A stretch of 32,000 nt of DNA from NCBI RefSeq assembly GCF_051097895.1, contig NZ_CP142525.1:1230001-1262000 (forward strand), written 5' to 3'. Position 1 is the stretch's first letter, and each line of letters begins with the position of its first letter. The position numbers were made by a program, and so were the translations under genes. Of this stretch, positions 1 to 15,702 are shown piece after piece. The notes under the pieces were generated by a model, which was not told where the DNA came from, did not search any database, and saw only the letters and a program-made list of their open reading frames with translations. This stretch comes from Psychrobacter sp. HD31. GTDB lineage: Bacteria; Pseudomonadota; Gammaproteobacteria; Pseudomonadales; Moraxellaceae.

Positions 1-910
1 TATCACAACCGTAATGCACACGCTCAGCAACACCAAGTTGATGTGCAAGTTGCGCAATATATTTACGGTAATCTCTATGCCCTCTATCAAGTGGATGATG
101 TTTAAAAACTAGATGATGACTTGCATCTGCATGGCTGGCAAAGCTACTTACCACCTCATTAATAAAATCTTTCACATCCGTGTAATCACTATGATGTGTG
201 ATTTGTGTATCTTTATGTACTTGCAGAGTACAGACAAAATACGCCTTTTTATGCTGCGCTATCATTTTTTCTAACAAACGTTGATCACGCGCATGGTCCC
301 GTATTTTACGATAAGGTGCTTTTATCCACGCTTTTGCTTCTTGAATGGCCGTTAATCCACGATAATGATAATAGTTTGGATACTTTTTTTTGTTTAGCCT
401 AACAACAATATAGTAAATAATCGCCGCCCAACACAAACGATAAAACCGATTATTGGTATAAAGTGGTTTGTCATGTGCTTTTGGCAAATTATGGATTTTA
501 TTAACATCTAGACGAGAAAAGCCGTTAATACCGTGCTCTTCAAAAGTGATATAGTCAGGTCTAAGATAGCCTTCTTCAAATACAAAAAAGCTGGTTTTAG
601 ATTGCTCACAGTATTCGGCAGCCTTTAAATGATGTGGACGACAATCACCAAAGCAGACGATCGCATCAATATCATGCGTTTCGACAAACTTAGCTAACCA
701 GCCATCAAACTCATCAACCGCTCCCTTATAGTCGTAAGCATTATCATGCTGATAAAAAAAGGCATCACCAGCATTAAAATTAATTTTACTAACCGCTATA
801 TTTTGATCTAATAAAAAAGAAGCAAACCGACTAAAGGATGACCCCATTTTGCCCTGTAGCAACAATACATGCTGATAGGTTAACAAGCGTTGCATAGAGG
901 TGGTTTTCAT
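1..910 (-). CDS. kpsS: Capsule biosynthesis protein KpsS (lipid-linked poly-Kdo linker initiation); N-terminal ~303 codons, C-terminus lies beyond the left window edge
   Basis: Not in the ORF track because it is open at the window edge. Hand translation of the minus strand from ATG at 910 gives MKTTSMQRLLTYQHVLLLQGKMGSSFSRFASFLLDQNIAVSKINFNAGDAFFYQHDNAYDY ... HHLVFKHHPLDRGHRDYRKYIAQLAHQLGVAERVHYGCD. The portions I translated by hand (about 781-910 and 1-481) had no stop. The sequence resembles KpsS/LipB family proteins and sits directly downstream of kpsC. Confidence 0.85.
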   Translation of the reverse strand, partial: MKTTSMQRLLTYQHVLLLQGKMGSSFSRFASFLLDQNIAVSKINFNAGDAFFYQHDNAYDYKGAVDEFDGWLAKFVETHDIDAIVCFGDCRPHHLKAAEYCEQSKTSFFVFEEGYLRPDYITFEEHGINGFSRLDVNKIHNLPKAHDKPLYTNNRFYRLCWAAIIYYIVVRLNKKKYPNYYHYRGLTAIQEAKAWIKAPYRKIRDHARDQRLLEKMIAQHKKAYFVCTLQVHKDTQITHHSDYTDVKDFINEVVSSFASHADASHHLVFKHHPLDRGHRDYRKYIAQLAHQLGVAERVHYGCD

Positions 911-1010: not shown

Positions 1011-3290
1011 TTATTGGCTTCGGCTTTTAATGCGATTTCGTATTTGCATAAACCTTAACTTGCTTTGTCCAACAAGTTTACTGATTAACTTTTGTTTTTG
1101 CGGAGTTTGTTGGCTATTTTCGTTTTTATATAAATAATCTATCACTTGCTCTACTTGCGCAAGCCCATAGCCACCGGGTAAGCGGTATAAAGGATATTCA
1201 ATTAAGGTACAATAAATGAGTTGGTTTAAAGTTAAATCGACATGACGTTCTCGCCGTTTTAAAAAATTTGATTTAGGCATAATATCTGAGTCTATATCAT
1301 TTGTTAGCCCCCATCCAGCATAAAATGGCAACCCATAACAAGTTACCTTTTTTTCCCTCAATAAAGCTTCAAACCCTGTTAAGGAGCTGATTGTATGCAC
1401 CTCATCAATTAACGCTAAGCAATCTGGCATAGCAACATCATGGGCAACTGCATCTGCTAAACCTAATGTGGCTTTATCTACCTTGCCCGTTCGCAATCCT
1501 GCTTCTACATCCGGATGTGGTTTATACACAATATAGGCATTCGGGTTATCAACACAAACGCGTTTAATTAACTCAGCATTTTTTGTAATCATAGAACCAC
1601 AAAATTGGACCGACAAATCATCTTCTACTTGCCCAACGACTAATATTTTATGCTTTTTCGTTGTTTGTATTGCTTTTAGCCAATGTAATTTATCAGCATT
1701 TATTTGGTTGCCAACATTATACTTACTTACTTTATTGGCGAGCATATATTGATGTAATTTTTCTGCTCTGGCATTTTGTTGTTCAGTTAACGGAAGGCTG
1801 TTTTTTAACAAACCTTCTAAATCAGATGGTTCTGTTGCATTATAATAAATACCTTGTTTATCCAACACAACAGACAAAGGCGCAAGTAATGTTGCACCTA
1901 AGCCGTTTGAACGAATAAAGCCATCTTCCATACAATAAACGTGGTTACTTGTTTTGTGTTCACCGATTTGTAGGCGCTTTGCAAGCCCCCAAACTAAAAA
2001 TGGACTGTTATTATTTACAAAATAATGATTCGGGTTTGCTAAATTGTTTAGCTTTTGTTTTGGCTTAAAAAATAGTTGGGTTTTAGGAAAGCCAACAAAC
2101 GCTTTTACAAATGGAAACTTCCATTGGCTAAACTCATAAACCATTAAATTACCTTGTAGAAGGTTATGCCACCTACTGTTGGTAATCAGCCAATCCATCG
2201 CCGTATCAATGTCACAACTGACGCCACTGGCAGGATCAACATATTTGCTATAATCAATATATGCTGCAAAAAATAACTGCTCAATAGTAGGTAGCAATGC
2301 TTCTGAGTCATGTAAGTTATGACTACCTAATGAATCATTGTGACGTTGTTTAACCTTCTTTAATAGCTTCTTAGGTGCTTTACTATCGTCTGTTAAACCC
2401 CAGCCTGCGTACCAGTTAACGCCATAACAATGTACAACTTTATTTAATAATAATGCTTCAAATCCCATATGTGAACTCACTGTATAAACTGCTGCTACCT
2501 GCTGCAATAAAGCAATCGGGTTCATTTTTTCAGTTAATATGTGAATCCGTTTTATATGTTTTTTAGGTAAACTTAATTGAGTTAAATACCCTTTTTTGCC
2601 TGCAGGATGTGCTTTAATCCAAATATGAGCGTCAGGATGATTTTTACAGGCATCCTTTAGCATATTTTTAAACTGTTGTTTGTTTGCTCCCGCTCCTTTA
2701 ATTGAAGCGTCGTCTAATACTTGATCAATTAATAAAATATGAGGAGTGTCGGCATTTATGCCAGCTAGCATAGATAAAACTGGAGCCGTCAGTATTTCAT
2801 TATACTTTGAGAGTTTATGTGAGATAATTTTATCAATAAGATAACGTGCATAATCTTGATGTTGTTCAGACCAAATGCTGTCATCTTTTTTTTGAGTAAT
2901 TCTCTGTGTTACAAGTTGTTCTAATCTAGAAGGATTTTCCAGATCGAAATAAATGCCTAGATCATCAACGACCAGACTCACAGCATGACGACTATTTACC
3001 CCTGAGTCTAACGATCGCAAAAAACCATCTTCTATACTAAAGACCTTTACATTTAATTTTTTTGAGGCTTTAAGAGCTCTATAGTAACTCTTTTTTCGTC
3101 CCCAACCAATAAAAGCAGATGGTAAATAATCACGTTGCACTTTTAAAGACCAAGGATACCAACGCACAACGCCTGATTCCAATGTCGCTTCAAGCAAGTC
3201 ATTATTGGTAATCATACCTTTACCAACTACCGCTAAATTTGGCGGTAGTTTCAGCTGATTTTTATTAGGTACATTCAAATTTAAGGTCAT
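1011..3290 (-). CDS. kpsC: Capsule biosynthesis protein KpsC (two-domain beta-Kdo transferase extending the poly-Kdo linker)
   Basis: 759-aa ORF with a duplicated architecture. The motifs IGWGRK...EDGFLRS (N-terminal half) and VWGLAKR...EDGFIRS (C-terminal half) are typical of KpsC/LipA. It lies between kpsD and kpsS. Confidence 0.9.
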   Translation of the reverse strand: MTLNLNVPNKNQLKLPPNLAVVGKGMITNNDLLEATLESGVVRWYPWSLKVQRDYLPSAFIGWGRKKSYYRALKASKKLNVKVFSIEDGFLRSLDSGVNSRHAVSLVVDDLGIYFDLENPSRLEQLVTQRITQKKDDSIWSEQHQDYARYLIDKIISHKLSKYNEILTAPVLSMLAGINADTPHILLIDQVLDDASIKGAGANKQQFKNMLKDACKNHPDAHIWIKAHPAGKKGYLTQLSLPKKHIKRIHILTEKMNPIALLQQVAAVYTVSSHMGFEALLLNKVVHCYGVNWYAGWGLTDDSKAPKKLLKKVKQRHNDSLGSHNLHDSEALLPTIEQLFFAAYIDYSKYVDPASGVSCDIDTAMDWLITNSRWHNLLQGNLMVYEFSQWKFPFVKAFVGFPKTQLFFKPKQKLNNLANPNHYFVNNNSPFLVWGLAKRLQIGEHKTSNHVYCMEDGFIRSNGLGATLLAPLSVVLDKQGIYYNATEPSDLEGLLKNSLPLTEQQNARAEKLHQYMLANKVSKYNVGNQINADKLHWLKAIQTTKKHKILVVGQVEDDLSVQFCGSMITKNAELIKRVCVDNPNAYIVYKPHPDVEAGLRTGKVDKATLGLADAVAHDVAMPDCLALIDEVHTISSLTGFEALLREKKVTCYGLPFYAGWGLTNDIDSDIMPKSNFLKRRERHVDLTLNQLIYCTLIEYPLYRLPGGYGLAQVEQVIDYLYKNENSQQTPQKQKLISKLVGQSKLRFMQIRNRIKSRSQ

Positions 3291-3324: not shown

Positions 3325-5061
3325 CTATAAGCCTAAAACAACCTTAGTGGCAATAGCAATTTGATAGAATATTTGCGATAAACCACGAGCAATTTCAACA
3401 TTTTTGGTTTTAATTTTAGGCAGTACCATAATTTCATCACCTTGCTGAATTCGGTATGCTGTATTAACAACCTGAGTCTCACCATTTTGATGTACAACTA
3501 AAATTTCTTCTTCATCTGCATTATTGTTGAAGCCCCCTGATTTAGCAACATAATCACCAACCGTTAAATCAGGATTAAAAGTAAGCGCGCCCTGTGCAAG
3601 TACCTGACCATTAACCGTAATCACAGAAGTTTTTTCTGGTATTTCAATGATATCACCCTGTTGTAAAATAATATCCTGCCAAGAGTCCTCGACTACAACA
3701 ATGCGTCCATCTGTTTTAACTTGTCTGGCTTTTGCGATAAATTGTTTTATTAAATTAGCATCATCTTGACGTAATTCCGCTTCTTCTCGTGTTGTTGATT
3801 GGCTCGCTAAAGTCATTTCTTCTAATCTATTTAATGACTCATTAATCAATTTTTTCTGCTTTTCAGCAACTGAAGCACGATAAATGGTTAAATTTTCTAA
3901 ATTAGCCAGCTCAGTCGGTTGTAACTGAGGAATCACATCTTTTAAATGTGTGCCATTTTTAACAATTAAAGCGCCATTGCCAGTATGGGCGCCTTTCACT
4001 TGTACAGCAATCGTACCTGCATAGCGATCTGATGATACCACCAAATGATCACCACGCGTAACTTGCATAGAACTTAGTCTTGAATCATTTAGTGGATAAT
4101 ATTCCGACACTTGCTCACGACCAGAAAAATCAACACCACGAGTGATACTCACATGCGTTGCATCTGTGTCAATCGCCGCCATTCTTAGCGCTTCTACAAC
4201 CGTTTTTGGGCGATCTTTATTAAACTCATAGGTATATTCATTTTTTACACTACCAGATACCGAATACGTATGTTGCTGTGGAGACACTTTAATGACATCG
4301 CCATCTCTAAATGCAAACGGTTGCAATGCACCAAATAATAAAAAGTCATACAAATTAACATCTATCATTTTGCGCCCGTGTCGTATAACTTGAATGCTAA
4401 TATAACTTCCGCTTTGCGGATCCACACCACCCGCCCTATCGAGATATGAAATAGCAGAGTCTGCTGCTAAACCACCATAATAACCTGGTTGATTAACAAA
4501 CCCAGTGACAAATACTTTAACCGGTTGTGCTTCTTCAAGCGCTGCATACACGCCAACATTCGCGCGGTAAACACTACGAACTGCGGCTTGGACTACATTC
4601 TGAAGTTTACCGTTTGATACACCTTGTAAACGAACTGGTCCAACGTTTGGTAAAAAGATATTGCCTTGTGGATCAACCGTCATAGTTGCAGCAAACTGAT
4701 AAGCGCCCCACATACGGACTTGGACGTTATCTCCTGGATTAATCACATAGCTTTGATTAAAACTAGAACCGGCACCTGTTGCAAATGCCCCTCGAAACAA
4801 TTGCGAACCAAACATGTTAGCATCTTGGCTATTTGAATCTTGATAGCCATTTTGATAAGCATTTGTTGAATTGTAAATAATTGAACTTGAAGGCATGCTT
4901 GCTGCCGCAACTGCTTCAGCTGTAGTAGTACTATCTGTATTTGCTAAGCCTTCATTATTAACACTCATATTTGCGTTGCTACCAAATGTGGTCGTTGCAG
5001 CGATTGATTGAGTAACCATCAGCGCACATATGGCAACGGTTAATGGATATTGCTTGTTCAT
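3325..5061 (-). CDS. kpsD: Outer-membrane/periplasmic polysaccharide export protein KpsD (OPX family)
   Basis: 578-aa ORF with an N-terminal signal peptide (MNKQYPLTVAICALMVTQSIAA). It has an FGSQLFRG...PGDNVQVRMWG Poly_export-like region followed by SLBB-like repeats. A Shine-Dalgarno AGGAAG precedes the ATG. It is located in the kps block. Confidence 0.9.
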   Translation of the reverse strand: MNKQYPLTVAICALMVTQSIAATTTFGSNANMSVNNEGLANTDSTTTAEAVAAASMPSSSIIYNSTNAYQNGYQDSNSQDANMFGSQLFRGAFATGAGSSFNQSYVINPGDNVQVRMWGAYQFAATMTVDPQGNIFLPNVGPVRLQGVSNGKLQNVVQAAVRSVYRANVGVYAALEEAQPVKVFVTGFVNQPGYYGGLAADSAISYLDRAGGVDPQSGSYISIQVIRHGRKMIDVNLYDFLLFGALQPFAFRDGDVIKVSPQQHTYSVSGSVKNEYTYEFNKDRPKTVVEALRMAAIDTDATHVSITRGVDFSGREQVSEYYPLNDSRLSSMQVTRGDHLVVSSDRYAGTIAVQVKGAHTGNGALIVKNGTHLKDVIPQLQPTELANLENLTIYRASVAEKQKKLINESLNRLEEMTLASQSTTREEAELRQDDANLIKQFIAKARQVKTDGRIVVVEDSWQDIILQQGDIIEIPEKTSVITVNGQVLAQGALTFNPDLTVGDYVAKSGGFNNNADEEEILVVHQNGETQVVNTAYRIQQGDEIMVLPKIKTKNVEIARGLSQIFYQIAIATKVVLGL

Positions 5062-5220: not shown

Positions 5221-6798
5221 TTAATTACTATGATCTTTAATAACAGCCATCACTAAACGGACAAAACCGTACAAAATAAGTAACAATGCTAATGATGTGC
5301 CGATAATGTACCCTTTTCTTGGATACAAAGCTTCTTCTGCTTGATAAGGCGCAGAGATCACCACCAGATTTTTCATTTTACGAAAAGCTTCAAGCTTTGC
5401 CTGTTCATAAGACGAAAGCGCAACTTTGTACATTTCTGAAGCAAATTCTACTTCAGACTTAATAGTCTCAAACTGAATTGTTTGTTGGCTTAATTTTACA
5501 TTGGAGTTAGAGGTTAATTTAGCACGTTCCTCTTGAATTTGTGTTTCAACAGCCCTTATCTGACTGGCAATAGAAACCAACTCTGGCGCATTATCATTTA
5601 AGTAACTTCGTTTTTGTCGTTGTTCTGTGCGTAAACTTGCCAGTTGCGCTTGCAAATTACCAATTAATTGATTAACCATAGCTGCATTAGTCTGCGGATC
5701 AAAAATTTGATTTTTATTTTGATATTGCAACATCCATGACTTTTTAGCATCTAAGTCTTTTTTTGATTCATCTAATTGTTTTTTTGCATACTGTAGTTGC
5801 TCAACTGCAATTTTATTAGACATCTGATTAATAAACTGCTCTGAAAGACCTAAAATAGCTTTATTAAGTTCCACACTATATTCAGCATCAAAACCTTCTG
5901 TCGTAACAGAAAGTACTTTTGTTTGCTCATCAAGATCGATATGCACACGTTTTTTAAAATACTCTAGAAGCTCTTCTTGACTGGCATCTTCAGACAATTC
6001 ATAAATAAAATCTTTGCCATTTATATAATATGCATTATGAAAATCAAATTTTGTGTCTAATCGTTTAACCATATCATTTGACAAAATAAATTGCGTCAAA
6101 TAATTGGCATCTTCACTACTTGTGTTATTAACGCCTAATAAAGCAGCAAATCCTCCATTGGGAGATACTTGTGTATCACTAACTTGCTTTACCACAACTT
6201 CAGAAGTCGATGTATAACGTGGTTGCGCAATAAACACCACGTAGAAAATCACTAATAACCACGGGATGATGACCAAAAAGGAAAATAAGCTAAAGCTTAC
6301 AAGATTTCTAGACCATTTATCTTTAAATCTTTTGTTCTTGATTGATTGCTCATTCTTTTTTGGTGCTTCTGCCTTTGGCTTTGGTGCTTCTGCCTTTGGC
6401 TTTGGTGCTTCTGCCTTTGGCTTTGGTGCTTCTGCCTTTGGCTTTGGTGCTTCTGCCTTTGGCTTTGGTGCTTCTGCCTTTGGCTTTGGTGCTTCTGCCT
6501 TTGGCTTTGGTGCTTCTGCCTTTGGCTTTGGTGCTTCTGCCTTTGGCTTTGGTGCTTCTGCCTTTGGCTTTGGTGCTTCTGCCTTTGGCTTTGGTGCTTC
6601 TGCCTTTGGCTTTGGTGCTTCTGCCTTTGGCTTTGGTGCTTCTGCCTTTGGCTTTGGTGCTTCTGCCTTTGGCTTTGGTGCTTCTGCCTTTGGCTTTGGT
6701 GCTTCTGCCTTTGGCTTTGGTGCTTCTGCCTTTGGCTTTGGTGCCGCTACAGATTCAGCTGATACATTATCTTTCACTATTTTTACCCCAGCAATCAA
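5221..6798 (-). CDS. kpsE: Capsule export inner-membrane adaptor KpsE (PCP-3 family) with a ~146-aa N-terminal extension containing 18 PKPKAEA heptads
   Basis: 525-aa ORF. Residues ~147-525 carry the KpsE hallmarks: a TM helix followed by AQPRYTSTSEVVVKQ (compare E. coli SQPRYMSESKVAIK), a long coiled-coil region, and a C-terminal TM/amphipathic helix. The ORF start is TTG at 6798, 2 nt after the kpsT stop. An alternative GTG at 6777 has GGGG 10 nt upstream. There is no in-frame ATG/GTG/TTG between the repeat and the first TM helix. Confidence 0.88.
   Translation of the reverse strand: MIAGVKIVKDNVSAESVAAPKPKAEAPKPKAEAPKPKAEAPKPKAEAPKPKAEAPKPKAEAPKPKAEAPKPKAEAPKPKAEAPKPKAEAPKPKAEAPKPKAEAPKPKAEAPKPKAEAPKPKAEAPKPKAEAPKPKAEAPKPKAEAPKKNEQSIKNKRFKDKWSRNLVSFSLFSFLVIIPWLLVIFYVVFIAQPRYTSTSEVVVKQVSDTQVSPNGGFAALLGVNNTSSEDANYLTQFILSNDMVKRLDTKFDFHNAYYINGKDFIYELSEDASQEELLEYFKKRVHIDLDEQTKVLSVTTEGFDAEYSVELNKAILGLSEQFINQMSNKIAVEQLQYAKKQLDESKKDLDAKKSWMLQYQNKNQIFDPQTNAAMVNQLIGNLQAQLASLRTEQRQKRSYLNDNAPELVSIASQIRAVETQIQEERAKLTSNSNVKLSQQTIQFETIKSEVEFASEMYKVALSSYEQAKLEAFRKMKNLVVISAPYQAEEALYPRKGYIIGTSLALLLILYGFVRLVMAVIKDHSN
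6361..6738 (-). repeat. 18 perfect tandem copies of a 21-bp unit (plus strand TGGTGCTTCTGCCTTTGGCTT; gene sense AAGCCAAAGGCAGAAGCACCA), in frame within kpsE, encoding (PKPKAEA)n
   Basis: I counted directly from the sequence: 378 bp equals 18 x 21 with no mismatch seen. Partial or degenerate units flank it at 6739-6746 and 6355-6360. All three plus-strand frames are also open across it, which is a repeat artefact. Confidence 0.95.
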
Positions 6799-6800
6799 AC

Positions 6801-7475
6801 TTAGTTTGCACGTGACTTATGGACATGCTCTTTATAAACCTCAATCGCTTCTTTTGTATTTGTAAACACTTTTGCTGATTGATTCATTAAAACAACCCCA
6901 ATATCACAGTTTCTTTCAATATCACCCAAATTATGTGACACCACTAAGAAACCGGCCTGTTTTCTCCGTGCTTCCAATATTTCTTCACTTCTTTTTCTAA
7001 ATGCCGCGTCTCCAACAGCACCCGCTTCATCCAACATATAATAGTCAAAATCAAAGGCCAAACTTAACCCAAAAGTTAAACGCGACTTCATACCTGATGA
7101 ATAACTTTTAACCGGCATATCAAAATATCGACCAATATCTGCAAATTCTTCTACAAAACGTATTTTTTCATCAATGAATGCGCCGCTTGAATATAAACGA
7201 CAAACAAAACGAACATTTTGGCGACCTGTTAAACTCCCTTGAAATCCACCGGCCACACCTACCGGCCAAGAGATCGTTGAGTCTGTCTCGACAACGCCAG
7301 AATCAGGTCGATCTAAACCGCAGATAATACGTAATAAAGTTGACTTACCGGCACCATTGCGTCCAAGTAAGCCAACACTTTGCTTATCTTCAATAGTTAA
7401 ATTTAAGTCTTTAAATAAATAATGCCTGCCCTTTGGTGTCATAAACGACTTAGTGACATTCTTAAGTGTAATCAT
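6801..7475 (-). CDS. kpsT: Capsule polysaccharide ABC exporter ATP-binding protein KpsT
   Basis: 224-aa ORF with Walker [13 protein letters not shown] signature YSSGMKSRL and Walker B YYMLDEA. It is adjacent to the ABC-2 permease gene. Confidence 0.92.
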
Positions 7476-7513: not shown

Positions 7514-8326
7514 TTATTTTGCGCGTATTAAATCTCGCTCAAATGCTTTGTACATTAATAAGCCAATAAGATCAACTGTCAACATCCATTTAATAAAATA
7601 CATAAAATCAATATGATAATATGGATAAGAGGGTGCTAGTGAATGTCTAATCAGTTCTAAATTATGTACAAAAGGAATATATAACAAATAATTTATATAT
7701 GGTTCAGGAACAATTGTGATTGAATAAATAACCCCTGATGTAAAATATAAAATAGTAAAGATCAGACTCACTACTTTACCAATCTCCCCGCCATAATACC
7801 CAATCATCATCATAATCAGGGCAAACCCCAAACTAAATAAAAACATGGTGAGCCAGCACAGTAACACAACATCTAAATGTGAAAAACTAATCCCTATACC
7901 CAAAAATGCCAATAAAGTTAATAATAAAACAAAAGTGAAAAAATAAATAACCAACTCTAAAAAGGAACGCGCAAAAATCACATCAAAATGCCTAACAGAA
8001 CGATACATCAATAAACCTTTATTTGCTTCAACCGCACCTAAAGATCTATTGGCAATACGCCTAAACATTTGATATGGCACCAAGCCCGCTACCAAAAATA
8101 GCATATAATCAATACCTGGCATTACCCGATGCATAATTGCACCGAAAAAGATTAGATATACAGTAACCTGAAATAAAACTTCTAATGGCGCCCATAAATA
8201 ACCCAATCGAAAACTACCAAAACGTGTTTGTAACTCACGCATTAAAAGAGCATGAAAAGCTGCACCCATAACTTTTAAGCCACTGCGTCTTTTTACGGGT
8301 CGATAAGGAGGTAGTTCAATAGACAT
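7514..8326 (-). CDS. kpsM: Capsule polysaccharide ABC exporter permease KpsM (ABC-2 type)
   Basis: 270-aa polytopic membrane ORF with ABC-2/KpsM-like organisation. It is the first gene of the kpsMT pair. Confidence 0.88.
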   Translation of the reverse strand: MSIELPPYRPVKRRSGLKVMGAAFHALLMRELQTRFGSFRLGYLWAPLEVLFQVTVYLIFFGAIMHRVMPGIDYMLFLVAGLVPYQMFRRIANRSLGAVEANKGLLMYRSVRHFDVIFARSFLELVIYFFTFVLLLTLLAFLGIGISFSHLDVVLLCWLTMFLFSLGFALIMMMIGYYGGEIGKVVSLIFTILYFTSGVIYSITIVPEPYINYLLYIPFVHNLELIRHSLAPSYPYYHIDFMYFIKWMLTVDLIGLLMYKAFERDLIRAK

Positions 8327-8452: not shown

Positions 8453-8492
8453 GTAAAAAAAAAGTCAGTAACTATTTAATTAGTTACTGACT
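8453..8492 (-). terminator. Rho-independent terminator downstream of tRNA(CAU)
   Basis: Perfect 12-bp stem AGTCAGTAACTA / TAGTTACTGACT (8463-8474 and 8481-8492) with a 6-nt loop. On the minus strand it is followed by a run of about 9 T (plus-strand A-run 8455-8463). Confidence 0.75.
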
Positions 8493-8501
8493 TTATAAAA
8501 A

Positions 8502-9914: not shown

Positions 9915-11039
9915 ATGAAAGCTTTTAATAGTAAGTCGAACACAACATCAACAAAAAAACTGAGTCAATTTACAGGGCTTGGTATAACAGCAATCACCCT
10001 TGGTTTGGTGGGTTGTGGTGGTTCTAACTCTGATGCTAACACAGCAGCTAAAACAGAAGTTGAGGCAACAACATCAGAAACAAACAACGCAAGCTCTGCT
10101 GAAGGCAATATTGAGTTATTAAATGTCTCTTATGACGTGGCTCGTGACTTTTATAAAGACTATAACCCCAAGTTTATTGAACATTATAAAGCTGAACATC
10201 CAGAAGCTAACATTACCATTAAACAATCACATGGTGGCTCAAGTAAGCAGGCACTGTCTGTTGCCAATGGATTACAAGCCGATGTCGCTACCATGAACCA
10301 AGGTTCTGATATTGAGTTGTTAGAAGAAAAAGGCTTGGTTGCAAACGATTGGGAACAACAGTTCCCTGACCATGCTGTGCCCTTTACCAGTACCATCGTA
10401 TTTTTAGTGCGTAAAGACAATCCTAAAGCAATTACAGGTTGGGAAGACTTAACAAAAGACGGGCTAGAAATCGTGATGGCAAACCCAAAAGTGACAGGTA
10501 ATGGACGTTATGCCTTCTTGGGTGCTTATGGTTATGGCTTGCATAAATTTAATAACGATGAAACCAAAACCAATGAACTTGTTAAAGGGATTTTGGACAA
10601 CGTTAAAGTCTATGAAAATGGTGGTCGCGCAGCAACAACAACCTTTGCTCAACGTAACATTGGCGATGTGTTAATCACTTTTGAGAATGAATCAAACTTG
10701 GCTAAAAACAAATTTGCACAGGGTCAAGTCGACATCGTTTATCCAGACTACTCGATTAAATCAGAAAGCCCAGTTGCCATTGTAAACACAGTAACCGAGA
10801 AAAAAGGCACAACCGATGCCGCCAAAGCATACCTAGATTATCTATGGAGTGAGCCTGCTCAACAGTTAGCGGCTGATTTATACCTACGACCAAGCGTACA
10901 AGCCGTGCTTGAAAAAAATGCTGATAAATTACCACCGGTAGAAACCTTCCGCCCTGCCGATGTATTTGGTACTTGGGGTGAGATTATGCCAAAGTACTTT
11001 GCTGATGGCGGTGTTTTTGATGAGCTAACTAAAAAATAA
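9915..11039 (+). CDS. sbp: Sulfate/thiosulfate-binding protein (Sbp/CysP family), predicted lipoprotein with a long Ser/Thr/Asn/Ala-rich linker
   Basis: 374-aa ORF with a lipobox LVG-C at residues ~31-34, followed by a ~35-aa low-complexity linker and then an Sbp-like core (LLNVSYDVARDFYKD...SHGGSSKQA...NPKVTGNGRYAFL). A Shine-Dalgarno AGAGG precedes the start. It is the first gene of the cys transporter operon. Confidence 0.88.
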   Translation: MKAFNSKSNTTSTKKLSQFTGLGITAITLGLVGCGGSNSDANTAAKTEVEATTSETNNASSAEGNIELLNVSYDVARDFYKDYNPKFIEHYKAEHPEANITIKQSHGGSSKQALSVANGLQADVATMNQGSDIELLEEKGLVANDWEQQFPDHAVPFTSTIVFLVRKDNPKAITGWEDLTKDGLEIVMANPKVTGNGRYAFLGAYGYGLHKFNNDETKTNELVKGILDNVKVYENGGRAATTTFAQRNIGDVLITFENESNLAKNKFAQGQVDIVYPDYSIKSESPVAIVNTVTEKKGTTDAAKAYLDYLWSEPAQQLAADLYLRPSVQAVLEKNADKLPPVETFRPADVFGTWGEIMPKYFADGGVFDELTKK

Positions 11040-11092
11040 TTGAGTCCCCACGCGCTTGTAAATGAGTAAGCGCGTGGTGAAGGACGGATAAA

Positions 11093-11929
11093 ATGAAAAC
11101 TCAAAACAAAAAACGCCGTATCTTACCTGGTTTTGGGTTAAGCCTCGGTATTAGTATATTCAGTTTATCACTTTTGGTGGTTTTGCCCTTTGCCATGATG
11201 GCATATACCACCACACAAATGGGCTTTGATAAGTTCATTACCACCATTACTCAACCTCAAGTATTCCATGCTATTAAGCTGTCGATTCAGATGGCAGGGC
11301 TTGCGATGCTCACCAATATGGTATTTGGTACTTTGGTGGCGTGGGTATTGGTTCGCTATGATTTTGTTGGTAAATCGTTGATGAACGCTTTGGTTGATTT
11401 ACCATTTGCGTTGCCCACGGCAGTCACTGGTATTTCACTTGCAACGCTCTATGCGCCTAATGGATTGATTGGACAGTGGTTTGACAAAATTGGTATTAAA
11501 GTGGCATTTACTCCCGTGGGTATCTGGCTTGCCTTGGTTGTGGTTAGTTTTCCATTTATTGTGAGAGCCGTTCAACCAGTACTTGCCGAGCTATCGGTAG
11601 AATTTGAAGAAGCAGCAGCCGTTTTGGGGGCTAGTCGTCTCCAAACATTTTTTCAGGTGGTGTTCCCTGAACTACTCCCAGCTTTATTGATGGGTGCTGG
11701 CATGATGTTTGCTCGTGCCACAGGAGAATACGGCTCAGTGATTTTTATTGCAGGGAACATACCCATGCAGTCTGAGATTTTACCATTAATTATTATTGGT
11801 AAGCTTGAAATGTTTGATGTTGCTGGGGCATCAGCCGTTGCATTATTCATGCTATTAATTTCGTTTGTGATTTTATTGTCAATCAATATTATGCAGTGGC
11901 GATTGTCTCGACGAGTCGGTGCAAAGTAA
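11093..11929 (+). CDS. cysT: Sulfate ABC transporter permease CysT (CysU)
   Basis: 278-aa polytopic ORF with the EAA-loop-like motif FEEAAAVLGASRLQTFFQVVFP. It follows sbp. Confidence 0.9.
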   Translation: MKTQNKKRRILPGFGLSLGISIFSLSLLVVLPFAMMAYTTTQMGFDKFITTITQPQVFHAIKLSIQMAGLAMLTNMVFGTLVAWVLVRYDFVGKSLMNALVDLPFALPTAVTGISLATLYAPNGLIGQWFDKIGIKVAFTPVGIWLALVVVSFPFIVRAVQPVLAELSVEFEEAAAVLGASRLQTFFQVVFPELLPALLMGAGMMFARATGEYGSVIFIAGNIPMQSEILPLIIIGKLEMFDVAGASAVALFMLLISFVILLSINIMQWRLSRRVGAK

Positions 11930-12111
11930 TTTTGCTTTGCCTGACTGTCGTGAACAAAACGGGTGACCAAAATGCATAATTTACAGAAAAATTTAAACAA
12001 ACTAAAACAAAAATAGAACCCTGTTATCTGATTGTATGTTTGGCTCCAAGATTACGGAGCTGTCTGCCAGTCTGGTTTTATTTTAAATAAAGAATAAACA
12101 AGGTATTTAAT

Positions 12112-13341
12112 ATGACATCAAACTTAGTTCCGCCACATGGCAGCGATGTTCTTAAGCCACTTTTGTTAGAGGGTCAAGCACTACAAGACGCTCAAGCAAA
12201 AGCAGCCAATTTAACCAGCATCACCATCAGCTCTCGTGAGCGTGGCGATTTAATTATGCTTGGTATTGGTGGTTTTACCCCACTAGATGGTTTTATGAAC
12301 CAAGCCGACTGGCAAGGTGTTTGTGATGAAATGACATTACAAACTGGCAATAACAAAGGGCTTTTTTGGCCTATTCCAATCACCCTTTCTGCTTCAAGTG
12401 AAGAAGCCAGTCCACTTAACATTGGTGATGAGATTGCCCTAAAAGCCGAAGATGGCGAAGTCATGGGCGTGCTAACACTGTCAGAAAAATACAGTATTGA
12501 TAAAGCGCATGAGTGCCAGAGCGTGTTTGGAACAACCGAAACAGAACATCCTGGTGTGCAAAAAGTGATGGAACAAGGCGATGTCAATTTAGCTGGCTCA
12601 GTACAGGTGTTTAGTCAGGGTGAGTTTCCTAGCGAATATGCTGGCATTTATATGACACCGGCAGAAACTCGTGCCATTTTTGAAGAAAAAGGCTGGAAAA
12701 AGGTTGCTGCGTTTCAAACTCGCAACCCAATGCACCGTTCACATGAATATTTGGCAAAAATTGCCGTTGAAATTTGTGATGGCGTGATGATTCATTCATT
12801 ATTAGGTGCCTTGAAACCTGGTGATATCCCTGCCGAAGTTCGTCAACAAGCCATTGGTACACTCATTGACAACTACTTTAAAAAAGATACGGTCATTCAA
12901 TCTGGCTATCCATTAGATATGCGTTATGCAGGACCTCGTGAAGCGTTATTACATGCGTTATTCCGTCAAAATTATGGCTGTACTGATTTGATTGTTGGTC
13001 GTGACCACGCAGGCGTTGGTGATTACTACGGTGCATTTGATGCTCAGGATATTTTTGATGAAATCCCAGATAACGCCATGAAGACCAAACCGCTAAAAAT
13101 CGATTGGACTTTTTGGTGTAATGCTTGTGGCACCATGGCATCAACCAAAACTTGCCCTCATGACGCCAAGCATCATGTCAAAGTATCTGGCACCAAGCTG
13201 CGTAAGGCGCTATCAGAGGATGAACCAGTACCAGATAACTTTAGCCGCCCAGAAGTGTTGCAAATCTTACGGGATTATTATTCAACCATCGAAAAAGCAG
13301 ACCGTGCAAAAGTTGAGCTAAAAGGTCACTCGGCACAGTAA
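12112..13341 (+). CDS. sat: Sulfate adenylyltransferase, homo-oligomeric Sat type (ATP sulfurylase)
   Basis: 409-aa ORF with the Sat signature motifs [13 protein letters not shown] and VGRDHAGVG, an N-terminal PUA-like region, and a C-terminal C-x2-C-x8-C-x-H cluster ([15 protein letters not shown]). Confidence 0.9.
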
Positions 13342-13391
13342 TCGACTTTTTAAAAAAGCAAGCCTATCTAATATCGAAGGATAACAAGACA

Positions 13392-14018
13392 ATGACGACT
13401 GGACAAACAAACACCAAAGCAACCAATATTGTGTGGCATGATGCCGCTGTTTCGGCAGAAGAACGCTGGGAGCGACTATGCTCTAAACCTTGCGTACTAT
13501 GGTATACCGGCTTGTCAGGTTCTGGAAAATCTACGCTTGCCAATGCGGTTGACCGCCTGTTACATGACCAAGGCTATGCCACTTATTTATTAGATGGCGA
13601 CAACATCCGTCATGGCTTAAACAAAGACCTCGGTTTTACCGATGATGACCGCATTGAAAACATTCGTAGAATTACTGAAGTCAGCCAATTATTTAATGAT
13701 GCTGGGTTGATTGTTTCTACAGCGTTTATTTCCCCTTTTGTTTCTGACCGCCAATCAGCAAGAGAAATTGTGGGTAAAAACTTTATTGAGATATTTGTTG
13801 ATACGCCATTAGATGAATGTGAAAAACGAGACCCTAAAGGGCTTTATAAAAAAGCCCGTGCTGGTGAGATTCCAAACTTTACTGGTATTGATTCTCCCTA
13901 TGAGCCACCAGTCAACCCTGAACTCCATTTACAGACAACAGGGCTGACCATTGAGTCGGTAGCAAATCAAGTGGTTGATTACTTGGTTGCGCATGACTTC
14001 GTTCATAAAGCCAGTTAA
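13392..14018 (+). CDS. cysC: Adenylylsulfate (APS) kinase
   Basis: 208-aa ORF with the P-loop GLSGSGKST, LDGDNIRHGLNKDLGF and KGLYKKARAGEIPNFTGIDSPYE, all characteristic of CysC. Confidence 0.93.
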   Translation: MTTGQTNTKATNIVWHDAAVSAEERWERLCSKPCVLWYTGLSGSGKSTLANAVDRLLHDQGYATYLLDGDNIRHGLNKDLGFTDDDRIENIRRITEVSQLFNDAGLIVSTAFISPFVSDRQSAREIVGKNFIEIFVDTPLDECEKRDPKGLYKKARAGEIPNFTGIDSPYEPPVNPELHLQTTGLTIESVANQVVDYLVAHDFVHKAS

Positions 14019-14062
14019 TCAGTTAACCACCTCATATTCATAAACCAAAAAATAAGCCACTT

Positions 14063-14905
14063 ATGCAATCAGTTAATAACTACCCGTATCAAAATAATCC
14101 AGCCACAAAAGATAGCCCTTGGCTACGTTGGTTATTTATTGGGCTGGCAATGGCGTTTATGGGGCTCATGCTGCTGGTGCCTTTGTTTGCTGTTTTTTAT
14201 GAGGCGTTTAAAGAAGGCTGGCAATTGTATCTTGCCTCATTAATTGAGCCTGAAGCCCTTGCTGCCATTAAGTTAACCTTAATCACCGCAGCAATTGTGT
14301 TACCAATTAACATGATAATTGGTCTGGCAGTCGCATGGCTGGTCACGCGTTACAACTTTAAAGGCAAACAACTATTAACCACGATTTTGGATTTACCTTT
14401 TTCGGTATCACCAGTGGTGGCAGGTTTAATGTTTGTGCTGCTATTTGGTGCCAATTCATTGGTTGGCGGCTGGCTTGAATCTTTGGGTATGCAAGTGATA
14501 TTTGCCACGCCTGGCATTGTACTGGCGACCTTGTTTGTTACTTTTCCTTTTGTTGCCCGTGAGTTAATCCCTGTGATGCAATCACAAGGCGATAGCGAAG
14601 AACAAGCAGCACTGATTTTAGGCGCAAATGGTTGGCAAGTATTTTGGCATGTGACTCTGCCAAACATCAAATGGGCATTACTGTATGGACTGATTTTGAC
14701 CAATGCTCGTGCCATGGGAGAGTTTGGTGCCGTGAGTGTGGTGTCGGGACACATCCGTGGCGAAACCAACACCATGCCATTATTGGTAGAAATTGCCTAT
14801 AACGAATATCAATTTACCGCTGCCTTTGCATTATCGAGCCTGTTGGCGGTACTGGCATTAGTGACCTTGCTGCTACAGTATTTTATGAGTGATAAGCAAG
14901 ATTGA
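14063..14905 (+). CDS. cysW: Sulfate ABC transporter permease CysW
   Basis: 280-aa polytopic ORF, a paralogue of CysT, with an EAA-like loop EEQAALILGANGWQVFWHVTLP. Confidence 0.9.
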   Translation: MQSVNNYPYQNNPATKDSPWLRWLFIGLAMAFMGLMLLVPLFAVFYEAFKEGWQLYLASLIEPEALAAIKLTLITAAIVLPINMIIGLAVAWLVTRYNFKGKQLLTTILDLPFSVSPVVAGLMFVLLFGANSLVGGWLESLGMQVIFATPGIVLATLFVTFPFVARELIPVMQSQGDSEEQAALILGANGWQVFWHVTLPNIKWALLYGLILTNARAMGEFGAVSVVSGHIRGETNTMPLLVEIAYNEYQFTAAFALSSLLAVLALVTLLLQYFMSDKQD

Positions 14906-14982
14906 TTGTATCGCCCATTTTAAAATGACGATGAAAACAAAAAACTGGATATCCACAAAAGATTACAAATCTAGGTATTACA

Positions 14983-15702
14983 ATGAGTATAGACATTAAC
15001 CATGTACATAAGCAATTTGGCAGTTTTGTTGCCTTACAAGACATTAACCTAAGCGTACCCACAGGCAAAATGACCACATTACTGGGACCTTCAGGATGTG
15101 GAAAAACCACCTTGCTTCGTATCATTGCTGGGTTAGAGTATGCAGACAGTGGCAAAATTTTGTTTGATGGTGATGATGTGACCGATGTCCCTGTGCAGCA
15201 TCGTCATATTGGTTTTATGTTCCAACACTACGCCCTATTTCGTCATAAAACCATTGCCGAAAATATCGCGTTTGGTCTAAAAATGCTGCCTAAATCCAAA
15301 CGCCCGAGTAAAGCTGATATTCATAAAAAGGTAAGTGATTTATTAGAGTTAGTACAGCTGCCTCACTTAGCCGCATCGTATCCGCATCAATTATCTGGCG
15401 GACAACGTCAACGTATTGCATTGGCACGGGCACTGGCAGTAGAACCTAAGCTGCTGCTGCTTGATGAGCCTTTTGGCGCACTAGATGCAAAAGTACGTAA
15501 AGAGCTAAGAACATGGCTAAAAGACATCCATCATGAACTGGGTATCACCAGCATCATGGTAACCCACGACCAAGAGGAAGCAAGAGCGGTTGCGGATGAA
15601 ATTGTGGTAATGAACCATGGTGTGATTGAACAAATTGGTTCTCCTGATGAGCTGATTGCCAACCCAGCCAATGAATTTGTCGCAGACTTTTTAGATTTAT
15701 AA
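14983..15702 (+). CDS. cysA: Sulfate ABC transporter ATP-binding protein CysA, short form (ABC domain only)
   Basis: 239-aa ORF with Walker [11 protein letters not shown]-loop, signature LSGGQRQR, Walker B LLLLDEP and H-loop VTHD. It ends right after the [11 protein letters not shown] segment that normally precedes the C-terminal regulatory domain. Confidence 0.88.

What the first reader, a model, noticed from the sequence alone, without database searches (positions are those of the whole stretch)
6355..6798. KpsE carries 18 perfectly identical in-frame 21-bp repeats encoding a (PKPKAEA)18 cytoplasmic N-terminal extension
Seen directly in the sequence:
- Positions 6361-6738 are 18 tandem copies of one 21-bp unit with no mismatch that I could find, all in the kpsE reading frame.
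- The unit length is a multiple of 3, so gain or loss of copies changes protein length rather than switching the gene off.
- The part of the ORF after the repeat (about 379 aa) already covers everything expected of a complete KpsE: a short basic N-terminus, a TM helix, the QPRY motif, a periplasmic coiled coil and a C-terminal helix. E. coli KpsE is about 380 aa from memory. The repeat is therefore an add-on, not a replacement.
- I found no in-frame ATG, GTG or TTG between the repeat and the first TM helix. The ORF start (TTG 6798) sits 2 nt after the kpsT stop, which would allow translational coupling. The repeat therefore most likely has to be translated for KpsE to be made at all.

Inference:
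- By KpsE topology the extension would be cytoplasmic. It is proline-rich with net charge +1 per heptad (2 K, 1 E), so probably extended and PPII-like. It is reminiscent of TonB (EP/KP), AlgP (KPAA) or TolA-like spacers.
- It could act as a tether or ruler, or as a polyanion- or phospholipid-binding arm that contacts the KpsMT exporter, the KpsC/KpsS linker-synthesis enzymes, or the nascent acidic polymer.
- Absolute identity between the units implies very recent expansion or ongoing homogenisation. The locus is a candidate slipped-strand, length-variable contingency locus for capsule export.

I am not aware of a described PCP-3 protein with such a module.
Basis: partly seen in the sequence, partly recalled or inferred. 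Interest (0 to 1): 0.72.

Follow-up and report, generated by a model that had tools for sequence, protein, structure and literature searches.

The report
Repeat-built cytoplasmic tail on KpsE
A capsule-export protein (KpsE) of a Psychrobacter strain has recently grown a long, floppy, positively charged tail inside the cell by copying one 21-base unit 18 times; similar unstudied tails occur on the same protein in several unrelated bacteria, so the tail may do something.

Summary
Window 6359-6744 holds 18.4 perfect copies of a 21-bp unit, in frame with a complete kpsE (PCP-3) gene inside an intact kpsM-T-E-D-C-S cluster, most likely from Psychrobacter sp. HD31.

The array is very probably translated:
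- No ATG/GTG/TTG lies between it and TM1.
- The closest relative (85-87% DNA identity) keeps the same start region, identical over 49 nt.
- That relative has an open, non-repetitive 79-codon extension with 2.6 imperfect copies of the same heptad. All indels between the two are multiples of 3.

The start is more likely GTG 6777 (GGGGT 7 nt upstream) than TTG 6798. AlphaFold2 gives a disordered tail in front of a KpsE fold that matches PDB 8TSH.

The novelty claim is overstated. Long P/K/A/E-rich N-terminal tails, some containing the literal sequence APKPKAEA, occur in Rhodobacterales KpsE and in a third clade. One member of that clade has a near-perfect 72-bp array at the same position. I found no paper describing them.

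Length variation (the "contingency locus" idea) and any function are untested. My best guess is a flexible cationic tether or skirt on the cytosolic face of the exporter.

NCBI annotates this gene from inside TM1, which is almost certainly wrong.

The parts
6359..6744 (-). Perfect tandem array, 21-bp unit x 18.4. In the kpsE frame it encodes (PKPKAEA)18 at 6741..6364.
   Evidence: TRF result. 18 exact matches and none in shuffles. Translation. Coordinates checked.
5221..6798 (-). kpsE (PCP-3) ORF. It is 525 codons from TTG 6798 or 518 from GTG 6777. The stop codon is included.
   Evidence: TIGR01010 E=2.9e-87 over profile positions 6-362/362. 8tsh_E E=1.3e-62. Foldseek top hits are all KpsE chains.
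6775..6798 (-). Translation-initiation region: TTG 6798-6796, SD-like GGGGT 6789-6785, GTG 6777-6775. This stretch is 100% identical to the relative L068 within a 49-nt conserved block.
   Evidence: A gene caller picked the GTG in the relative (P0238).
6745..6774 (-). Unique N-terminal peptide before the array (KDNVSAESVA). It aligns without gaps to KDNLSNKPAE of the relative; the next two residues (AP, against TS in the relative) already lie inside the array.
6304..6363 (-). Basic juxtamembrane segment PKKNEQSIKNKRFKDKWSRN. It follows the positive-inside rule, and the motif PKK..QSIK is shared with the relative.
6226..6303 (-). TM1 (LVSFSLFSFLVIIPWLLVIFYVVFIA), followed by QPRY at 6225-6214.
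   Evidence: Alignment A1. AF2 helix 147-183. Coordinates checked.
6235..6237 (-). GTG used as the start in the NCBI annotation (WP_434352646.1, 338 aa). It lies inside TM1, so this start would remove the tail, the basic segment and most of TM1.
   Evidence: P0002 sequence. Coordinates checked.
5227..5316 (-). C-terminal transmembrane helix (TM2) of KpsE.
   Evidence: AF2 helix 488-517. Aligned to TM2 of 8tsh_E.
6767..6826 (-). 19-codon upstream ORF ([19 protein letters not shown]). It starts at the ATG that is the kpsE start in other Psychrobacter species. Here that ATG is in a third frame, and the ORF ends at a TAA 5 nt downstream of the GTG 6777 codon.
   Evidence: Conserved in L068.
6801..7475 (-). 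kpsT (ABC ATPase). Its stop codon lies 2 nt before TTG 6798.
7514..8326 (-). kpsM (ABC-2 permease).
   Evidence: NF050053 E=8.9e-45. PF01061.
3325..5061 (-). kpsD-like OPX protein (Poly_export + SLBB domains).
1011..3290 (-). kpsC-like protein with two Capsule_synth domains.
   Evidence: PF05159 E=2.6e-91, 2 matched stretches.
1..910 (-). kpsS, from ATG 910, cut off by the window start.
   Evidence: NF050054 E=8.5e-74..

Best explanation
The array is a recent in-frame expansion of a heptad-coding unit, by replication slippage or unequal recombination. That unit already existed, in two to three imperfect copies, in a translated, intrinsically disordered N-terminal tail of KpsE.

Translation starts directly after kpsT, most likely at GTG 6777 and possibly at TTG 6798. 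It runs through the array into an otherwise ordinary, complete PCP-3 protein. The product is about 518 aa: a 158-residue Pro/Lys/Ala/Glu tail (net +23, extended, no fixed structure) attached to TM1 on the cytoplasmic side.

KpsE forms an octamer whose TM1 helices make the outer ring around KpsMT. Eight such tails would therefore hang as a cationic, flexible brush around the cytosolic mouth of the exporter.

Inferred, not shown: the tail works as a length-tolerant tether or electrostatic skirt. It would keep cytoplasmic partners (KpsC/KpsS, glycosyltransferases) or the anionic lipid-linked polymer near the transporter. Copy number would change its reach, not whether KpsE is made.

My confidence by step: the array is translated as part of KpsE, about 0.85; it is a recent expansion of an older proto-repeat, about 0.9; the tail has a selected tether or skirt role rather than being a tolerated passenger, about 0.45. 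The overall figure of 0.6 weights the anatomical and genetic part (well supported) against the functional part (inferred).
For: Translation:
- The only in-frame ATG/GTG/TTG codons upstream of TM1 are TTG 6798 and GTG 6777.
- The closest relative, L068 (core 90-92% aa, 85-87% nt identity), has a 49-nt identical block covering the kpsT stop, TTG, GGGGT and GTG.
- From that block L068 has a 79-codon non-repetitive extension. It is open only in the kpsE frame on the sense strand; the other two sense frames have 8 and 4 stops.
- The flanks are homologous at the amino-acid level (KDN.S..., PKK..QSIK). All length differences between the two are multiples of 3, for example one of 60 nt.
- A gene caller independently called the GTG start in the relative (P0238, 427 aa). 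That exact protein occurs on 4 contigs.
- No promoter-like site lies between kpsT and kpsE.

Origin:
- The L068 unit TCAAAACCAAAGGTAGAAGCA (SKPKVEA) matches the window unit at 18 of 21 positions, which equals the background divergence. It is present in 2.6 copies.

Structure:
- AF2 gives pLDDT 34-49 and no secondary structure for residues 1-146, and a folded core.
- Foldseek's best hits are KpsE chains of 8TSH/8TT3/8TUN, target-normalised TM-score about 0.8.
- Topology and the outer-ring position of TM1 come from PMC11041684. That paper also used an N-terminally S-tagged KpsE in its expression constructs.

Recurrence, which argues for function:
- With a tail-free profile, 21 of 150 family representatives have at least 80 extra N-terminal residues.
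- P/K/A/E repeat tails occur in Rhodobacterales inside a genuine ABC capsule locus (P0121, P0103, P0105, P0142).
- They also occur in the P0242 clade, with different 11-, 12- and 24-aa units and a 72-bp array at 94-98% identity.
- Two Rhodobacterales proteins fuse a GT2 glycosyltransferase to KpsE through such a Pro/Ala/Lys-rich linker (P0130, P0199).
- Two-hybrid KpsC-KpsE and NeuS-KpsE interactions are reported in PMC2408645.
Against: - There is no protein-level evidence: no mapped N-terminus and no size on a gel.
- NCBI's pipeline annotates a 338-aa product that skips the tail.
- The tail carries no recognisable domain or motif, so the proposed function rests on composition, analogy and recurrence.
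- Most Moraxellaceae KpsE do without any tail: median pre-TM length is 7 aa among 100 hits, and none of 67 species representatives has one. It is therefore dispensable for export as such.
- Low-complexity tails can spread by mutation bias alone.
- The Rhodobacterales sample was seeded with a tailed query and is biased towards tails.
- With one Glu per heptad the charge density (+0.15 per residue) is well below that of proven polyanion binders such as AlgP.
- The copy number rests on a single assembly that I cannot check against reads.
Confidence: 0.6

Rival explanations
1. Translated but functionless passenger. The tail is a tolerated low-complexity appendix. The N-terminus of KpsE faces the cytoplasm and is sterically free, so slippage-prone repeats inflate there by mutation pressure and drift. 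The 18-copy array would be a transient, neutral or slightly costly state.
For: - Most relatives have no tail.
- Tail sequences are not conserved between clades, and the repeat units differ.
- There is no Pfam or NCBIfam domain in the tails.
- Perfect identity of the copies means that selection has had little time to act on the array.
Against: - Tails with the same compositional bias (Pro, Lys, Ala, Glu/Val; net positive) arose independently in at least three clades, with different repeat units.
- A further roughly 14 of 150 representatives carry a conserved, apparently folded N-terminal domain at the same place.
- Two proteins use such a linker to fuse a glycosyltransferase to KpsE.
- The frame is preserved across several indels between the window and L068.
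Confidence: 0.3
2. Length-variable contingency locus. Frequent gain and loss of 21-bp units would create subpopulations with different tail lengths, and these would differ adaptively in capsule export.
For: - A perfect 18-copy array is the kind of substrate on which slippage is expected.
- The sister lineage differs in copy number, 2.6 versus 18.4.
- Copy-number variation of tandem repeats within clonal populations is documented in other bacteria (PMC12817950).
- The KPAA repeat region of AlgP is reported as a mutational hot spot (PMC9239181).
Against: - No polymorphism data exist for this array. A 32-nt probe spanning one and a half repeat units has no exact match in the metagenome collection, and the 518/525-aa protein is in no other assembly.
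- The unit is a multiple of 3, so there is no ON/OFF switch.
- The short proto-array is identical on 4 contigs.
- No phenotype is linked to length.
Confidence: 0.2
3. Not translated. The array would be a VNTR in a long kpsT-kpsE intergenic leader. KpsE would start downstream, either at a non-canonical codon near KKNEQSIK (for example ATC) or at the annotated GTG 6237, or the gene would be a pseudogene.
For: - The NCBI annotation starts at GTG 6237.
- All six frames are open through the repeat, so the ORF there is uninformative.
- The ancestral ATG start (6826) is now out of frame.
Against: - GTG 6237 lies inside TM1 and would delete the membrane anchor that all homologues and the solved structure possess.
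- No canonical start lies between the array and TM1.
- The relative keeps a non-repetitive extension open in this frame only, with an identical start region and indels that are all multiples of 3.
- The whole kpsMTEDCS cluster is intact.
Confidence: 0.07
4. Assembly artefact in copy number. The array is real, but 18 is a mis-estimate from the assembler.
For: - Perfect arrays longer than a short read cannot be sized from short reads.
- In the analogous locus L084 the scaffold breaks, with 100 N, inside the array.
Against: - The source contig is 2.17 Mb.
- The array has no frameshifting errors and joins both flanks in frame.
- I could not inspect reads.
Confidence: 0.1

Closest known systems
KpsE of Caldimonas (Schlegelella) thermodepolymerans, PDB 8TSH/8TT3/8TUN (PCP-3; Kuklewicz and Zimmer, Nature 2024, PMC11041684)
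   Same: It is homologous over the whole core (E=1.3e-62; query 164-517 aligned to chain 17-373). It has the same fold (Foldseek E=1.8e-18, target-normalised TM-score about 0.8). Both have N- and C-terminal TM helices and sit in an operon with kpsM and kpsT.
   Different: The alignment enters the solved protein at residue 17, at the start of TM1, so that protein has only about 16 residues ahead of it. Here about 158 residues precede TM1, 126 of them a perfect heptad array.
KpsE-like 'sugar transporter' proteins of Rhodobacterales/Paracoccaceae (e.g. P0121, P0103, P0105, P0142)
   Same: They show a full-length TIGR01010 match and sit in an ABC capsule locus. They have long, net-positive P/K/A/E-rich tails before TM1, which include the literal APKPKAEA and degenerate tandem units.
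   Different: Their cores are only 23-32% identical to this one. Their repeats are old and degenerate (59-86% matches), not perfect. Their genomes are GC-rich. The origin is independent.
P0242 clade (uncultured; locus L084, GCA_020047675.1)
   Same: The gene order is kpsM-kpsT-kpsE. A near-perfect in-frame tandem array (72-bp unit, at least 8 copies, 94-98% identity) encodes an A/K/P/V-rich tail at the same position. Relatives carry other AKP units.
   Different: The unit is different (24 aa) and so is the core clade (AKDRY motif). The start ATG overlaps kpsT. The array is interrupted by a scaffold gap.
AlgP/PhaF KPAA-repeat, histone-H1-like domains (PMC9239181)
   Same: These are Lys/Ala/Pro-rich, tandem-repeat-encoded, intrinsically disordered and cytoplasmic, and the repeat region is mutation-prone.
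   Different: They are C-terminal domains of soluble DNA/polyP-binding proteins. They have almost no acidic residues and a much higher charge density. No homology was tested or claimed.
TonB (EP)n(KP)n spacer and Ala/Pro-rich linkers of 2-oxo-acid dehydrogenase E2 (from my own knowledge, not tested here)
   Same: They are X-Pro-rich, extended, flexible segments attached to a membrane anchor or a core, and they act as spacers or swinging arms.
   Different: The TonB spacer is periplasmic. E2 linkers join folded domains. Here the tail ends free after about 12 unique residues.

Membership tests
KpsE / BexC / CtrB (PCP-3) | Sequence homology to the family profile over its full length | tested here: met
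   TIGR01010 E=2.9e-87; residues 171-525 match profile positions 6-362/362. 8tsh_E E=1.3e-62.
KpsE / BexC / CtrB (PCP-3) | Score above NCBIfam's curated cut-off for TIGR01010 (437.5 bits) | tested here: not met
   The score is 293.1 bits. The other Moraxellaceae and alphaproteobacterial homologues tested, including bona fide capsule-locus genes, also fall below the cut-off at 205-344 bits. I read this as a narrow cut-off, not as exclusion from the family.
KpsE / BexC / CtrB (PCP-3) | Fold: TM1, beta-sheet dome, long helical hairpin, C-terminal TM helix | tested here: met
   AF2 core pLDDT is mostly 72-94, with the expected elements. The top 25 Foldseek hits are KpsE chains.
KpsE / BexC / CtrB (PCP-3) | Genomic context with the KpsMT ABC transporter and a KpsD OPX protein | tested here: met
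   The cluster is kpsM-kpsT-kpsE-kpsD-kpsC-kpsS, all on the minus strand and all intact.
KpsE / BexC / CtrB (PCP-3) | Octameric cage around KpsMT; required for export | not testable with these tools
   This needs biochemistry or genetics.
Contingency (phase- or length-variable repeat) locus | Long, perfect tandem repeat within or next to a gene | tested here: met
   18.4 perfect copies.
Contingency (phase- or length-variable repeat) locus | Copy-number change switches the reading frame or promoter ON/OFF | tested here: not met
   The unit is 21 bp, a multiple of 3, and lies inside the ORF. Only protein length would change.
Contingency (phase- or length-variable repeat) locus | Observed copy-number polymorphism within or between populations | not testable with these tools
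   No other sequence carries the array. Only the between-lineage difference of 2.6 versus 18.4 copies is seen.
Histone-H1-like KPAA domain (AlgP/PhaF) | Lys/Ala/Pro-rich disordered repeat domain | tested here: met
   Tail composition is K 27%, A 25%, P 23%. AF2 predicts it disordered.
Histone-H1-like KPAA domain (AlgP/PhaF) | Very high net positive charge with almost no acidic residues | tested here: not met
   There is one Glu per heptad. Net charge is +0.15 per residue and the fraction of charged residues is 0.42.
Histone-H1-like KPAA domain (AlgP/PhaF) | Binds DNA or polyphosphate | not testable with these tools
   This needs binding assays.
TonB-type proline-rich spacer | Periplasmic location between a membrane anchor and a C-terminal domain | tested here: not met
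   The tail precedes TM1 on the cytoplasmic side (basic flank; PMC11041684). It has no terminal domain.

The most novel reading that the evidence does not exclude
Cationic, proline-rich N-terminal tails, and in other lineages a conserved small N-terminal domain or a fused glycosyltransferase, would form a previously unrecognised cytoplasmic module of PCP-3 proteins. This module would physically couple capsule synthesis to the KpsMT-KpsE exporter. It would do so by tethering KpsC/KpsS or polymerases, or by capturing the anionic lipid-linked polymer, so helping to form the protected cytoplasmic compartment inferred for group 2 capsules. In Psychrobacter sp. HD31 the reach of this tether would be tunable by slippage of a perfect 21-bp array, giving heritable but reversible variation in capsule amount or chain length.
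Probability: 0.15. Interest if true: 0.7.

Novelty: new variant of a known kind. Interest (0 to 1): 0.45.

Why it matters
PCP-3 proteins are currently described as periplasmic cages with two membrane anchors and no cytoplasmic part. How cytoplasmic synthesis is coupled to the KpsMT-KpsE exporter is still open.

About one in seven family representatives carries a substantial N-terminal cytoplasmic add-on: repeat tails, a conserved small domain, or a fused glycosyltransferase. This points to a neglected interface that can be tested by simple in-frame deletions and two-hybrid or pull-down experiments. The HD31 allele would be a convenient natural test case, because copy number could be varied cleanly in 7-residue steps.

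There is also a practical point. Automatic annotation mis-starts these genes: here the NCBI start is inside TM1, and in the relative it is an internal GTG. The tails are therefore hidden in protein databases.

If the tail proves to be a neutral passenger, the finding reduces to an ordinary coding VNTR.

Tried and rejected
- Other copies of the array. A 32-nt exact pattern in metagenome contigs gave 0 hits. An exact look-up of the 518- and 525-aa proteins among about 15 billion sequences found neither. The full-length protein search gave only P0001 and P0002 as close relatives.
- Encoding contigs for P0001 and P0002: not on record. The relative's DNA came from the metagenome scan instead.
- 67 Psychrobacter, Moraxella and Alkanindiges species representatives: none has a long tail or an array.
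- Domain searches on the tails (Pfam, NCBIfam): nothing. The weak PDB 'hits' to the tail (BLLF1, P14) reflect low complexity and were rejected.
- Internal promoter or terminator between kpsT and kpsE: none.
- An ops/JUMPStart element (GGCGGTAG) in the kps leader: no match on the coding strand there.
- The out-of-frame ATG inside 'aaGAATGAGc' just after the array: it opens only an 18-codon ORF in another frame. Rejected as a kpsE start.
- Literature searches for KpsE/PCP-3 N-terminal or proline-rich extensions and for strain HD31: nothing relevant.
- Reading the six-frame openness of the array as evidence of coding: rejected. The unit has no stop codon in any frame.
Full report
**1. What is in the sequence**

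Tandem Repeats Finder reports a single array in the 32-kb window: 6359-6744, period 21, 18.4 copies, 100% matches and no indels. A pattern search finds 18 exact copies of GCACCAAAGCCAAAGGCAGAA on the minus strand. It finds no further copy even with 3 mismatches, and none of 100 shuffles gave a match.

The array lies in ORF 5221-6798 (-), which is 525 codons from TTG and reads LIAGVKIVKDNVSAESVAA-(PKPKAEA)18-PKKNEQSIKNKRFKDKWSRN-TM1-QPRY.... The kpsT stop (6803-6801) is 2 nt upstream of the TTG.

The unit has no stop codon in any of the six frames. Openness of the array itself is therefore not evidence of coding.

**2. The gene and its neighbourhood**

- NCBIfam TIGR01010 (BexC/CtrB/KpsE) matches residues 171-525 to profile positions 6-362 of 362 at E=2.9e-87. 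The score of 293 bits is below the curated 437.5-bit cut-off, as it is for the other homologues tested.
- The solved KpsE (8tsh_E) aligns at E=1.3e-62 over its residues 17-373.
- An AlphaFold2 model (518 aa from GTG 6777, 32-sequence alignment) has pLDDT 34-49 and no secondary structure for residues 1-146. Its core is folded: a basic segment plus TM1 helix, a beta-sheet, long helical hairpins and a C-terminal TM helix.
- The model's best Foldseek matches are the KpsE chains of 8TSH, 8TT3 and 8TUN, with target-normalised TM-score about 0.8.
- The gene sits in kpsM (7514-8326), kpsT (6801-7475), kpsE, kpsD (3325-5061), kpsC (1011-3290) and kpsS (from 910, cut by the window edge). All are intact and on the minus strand.
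- The only decent promoter-like site on that strand lies upstream of kpsM, and there is none between kpsT and kpsE.
- The core is 100% identical to WP_434352646.1 of Psychrobacter sp. HD31, on a 2.17-Mb contig. That strain is the likely source of the window.

**3. Is the array translated?**

The in-frame start candidates are TTG 6798 and GTG 6777. The next ones lie inside TM1. NCBI's 338-aa product starts at GTG 6237, inside TM1. That start would remove the anchor which every homologue and the cryo-EM structure possess.

The decisive evidence is comparative. The closest relative is locus L068 (contig PDWJ01000436.1), 90-92% identical in the core protein and 85-87% in DNA.

- It has a 49-nt block identical to the window, covering the kpsT stop, TTG, GGGGT and GTG.
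- From there it has a 79-codon extension of ordinary, non-repetitive sequence up to TM1: LIAGVKIVKDNLSNKPAETSKPKVEAASKPKVEASKPKKQSIKKNVDKPVSSSSSGIATKPVKKEKSEKKWFKTF...
- On the sense strand only the kpsE frame is open there. The other two frames have 8 and 4 stops.
- Both flanks of the window's array align to this extension at the amino-acid level (KDN.S... and PKK..QSIK).
- Every length difference is a multiple of 3, including a 60-nt one.
- A gene caller independently called the GTG start in the relative (P0238, 427 aa). That exact protein is found on four contigs.

GTG 6777 has GGGGT 7 nt upstream, at least as good a Shine-Dalgarno site as those of other genes in the window. TTG 6798 has none. 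I therefore put translation of the array at about 0.85, and I prefer GTG 6777 as the start.

**4. Origin of the array**

L068 carries 2.6 imperfect copies of a 21-24-bp unit. Its sequence TCAAAACCAAAGGTAGAAGCA (SKPKVEA) matches the window unit CCAAAGCCAAAGGCAGAAGCA at 18 of 21 positions, which is the background divergence.

The tail and a proto-repeat therefore predate the split of the two lineages. HD31 then expanded one unit to 18 identical copies, very recently relative to the roughly 15% divergence between them.

Other Psychrobacter and Moraxella species start kpsE at an ATG that overlaps the 3' end of kpsT, and have only about 7 residues before TM1. In HD31 and L068 that ATG (6826) survives but is in a third frame. 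It opens a 19-codon ORF that ends 5 nt downstream of the GTG 6777 codon.

**5. How unusual is such a tail?**

*Within Moraxellaceae it is rare.* None of 67 species representatives has one. A few Psychrobacter sequences have 20-70-residue polar extensions (P0004, P0021, P0025, P0036, P0039).

*Outside Moraxellaceae it is not rare.* A tail-free KpsE profile searched against 1.84 billion representatives gave 21 of the best 150 with at least 80 extra N-terminal residues. These fall into groups:

- Three have P/K/A/Q repeat tails: P0242, P0251 and P0281 (the last from Pokkaliibacter sp. MBI-7).
- About 14 share a conserved, un-annotated N-terminal domain.

The P0242 locus (L084) is kpsM-kpsT-kpsE. 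It has a 72-bp in-frame array at 94-98% identity and at least 8 copies, broken by a scaffold gap. Its relatives carry other AKP(E/V) units of 11, 12 and 24 residues.

Among Rhodobacterales KpsE-like proteins, 39 of 124 hits have tails of at least 100 residues. This sample was seeded with a tailed query and is therefore biased. Several of these tails are PK/AE-rich, with the literal APKPKAEA or KPEAKPAPKPEA runs. One of them lies in a NeuB-containing ABC capsule locus. Two proteins (P0130, P0199) fuse a GT2 glycosyltransferase to KpsE through such a linker.

Searches of the held literature found no description of these tails.

**6. Likely mechanism**

*Shown or well supported.* The product is a complete KpsE with a 158-residue disordered tail: 43 K, 37 P, 39 A, 20 E, net +23, pI about 10, 16.7 kDa. 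The tail is on the cytoplasmic side of TM1.

*From the literature.*
- KpsE is an octamer, and TM1 forms the outer ring of the membrane 'carousel' around KpsMT. The constructs in that study encoded an N-terminally S-tagged KpsE (PMC11041684).
- Two-hybrid KpsC-KpsE and NeuS-KpsE interactions, and a protected cytoplasmic compartment for polymer synthesis, have been reported (PMC2408645).
- Lys/Ala/Pro repeat domains such as that of AlgP bind polyanions and are mutation-prone (PMC9239181).

*Inferred.* Eight tails form a flexible cationic brush around the cytosolic entrance. Each would have a coil radius of about 3.5 nm and up to about 40-50 nm contour length. They would act as tethers or an electrostatic skirt for biosynthetic partners or the anionic glycolipid substrate.

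Independent recurrence of the same compositional type, and the glycosyltransferase fusions, favour a selected role. Three things favour a tolerated passenger: the absence of tails in most relatives, the lack of any conserved motif, and the modest charge density. I rate a selected role at about 0.45 and a neutral passenger at about 0.3.

**7. The contingency-locus idea**

The array is a plausible slippage substrate, and copy number differs between the two lineages. However, the unit is a multiple of 3, so it cannot switch the gene ON or OFF. No polymorphism data exist, and the short proto-array is invariant on four contigs. This remains a hypothesis, which I rate at about 0.2.

The copy number itself rests on one assembly. 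The L084 case shows how such arrays break short-read assemblies.

**8. Verdict**

Function and variability remain open.

This is a new variant of a known kind: a PCP-3 protein with a VNTR-built cytoplasmic disordered tail. It belongs to a wider, apparently undescribed set of N-terminal add-ons in the family. Interest is moderate, 0.45.

Noticed in passing
window 6235-6237 (-); L068 2507-2509: Database annotations truncate these genes. NCBI's HD31 KpsE (WP_434352646.1, 338 aa) starts inside TM1. The relative's PIE46985.1 (373 aa) starts at an internal GTG. Both hide the N-terminal tail from protein databases.
   Followed up: yes
window 6767-6826 (-): The ATG that starts kpsE in other Psychrobacter species survives here, overlapping the kpsT 3' end, but in a third frame. 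It opens a 19-codon ORF ([19 protein letters not shown]) whose TAA lies 5 nt downstream of the GTG 6777 codon. It is conserved in L068. It might feed termination-reinitiation coupling, or it might simply be a relic.
   Followed up: partly
L084 1806-2502 (GCA_020047675.1, JAHZTH010019555.1): This is a second, independent, near-perfect in-frame array at the 5' end of a kpsE gene. The unit is 72 bp, with 2.9 + 5.4 copies at 98% and 94% identity, encoding AAAKPTEAVKPPAAKASDPVKPVV. A 100-N scaffold gap splits the array, so the true copy number is unknown.
   Followed up: partly
proteins P0329, P0331, P0334, P0340, P0342, P0343, P0348, P0357, P0361, P0365, P0373, P0381, P0383, P0388: About 14 of 150 KpsE representatives share a conserved N-terminal (presumably cytoplasmic) domain of roughly 60 residues. 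Its motif is F..W.D..FL...A......D..LA.R..QR..NL.P. It has no Pfam match and seems to be an undescribed domain of PCP-3 proteins.
   Followed up: partly
proteins P0130 (865 aa) and P0199 (833 aa): These are Rhodobacterales proteins in which a GT2 glycosyltransferase domain (PF13641/PF00535) is fused to the N-terminus of a KpsE-like protein through a Pro/Ala/Lys-rich linker of roughly 150 residues. This is a Rosetta-stone-type hint that such tails link synthesis to export.
   Followed up: no
window 9915-15702 (+): Directly beyond coaD, next to the capsule cluster, lies a sulfate-uptake operon (cysP, cysT, cysW, cysA). Sulfate adenylyltransferase (12112-13341) and APS kinase (13392-14018) are inserted between cysT and cysW. 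This is probably ordinary sulfur assimilation. A link to a sulfated capsule was not examined.
   Followed up: no
window 8461-8494 (-): A 14-bp-stem hairpin followed by a T-run (terminator-like) lies in the leader between the best promoter-like site (8649-8621) and the kpsM start (8326). It could be an attenuator or antitermination target. No ops (GGCGGTAG) element was found on that strand.
   Followed up: partly
L080 5335-5838: In the Psychrobacter locus encoding P0021, which has a 60-residue polar KpsE tail, an extra 167-aa ORF without a Pfam hit sits between kpsE and kpsD. It is absent from the window's cluster.
   Followed up: no
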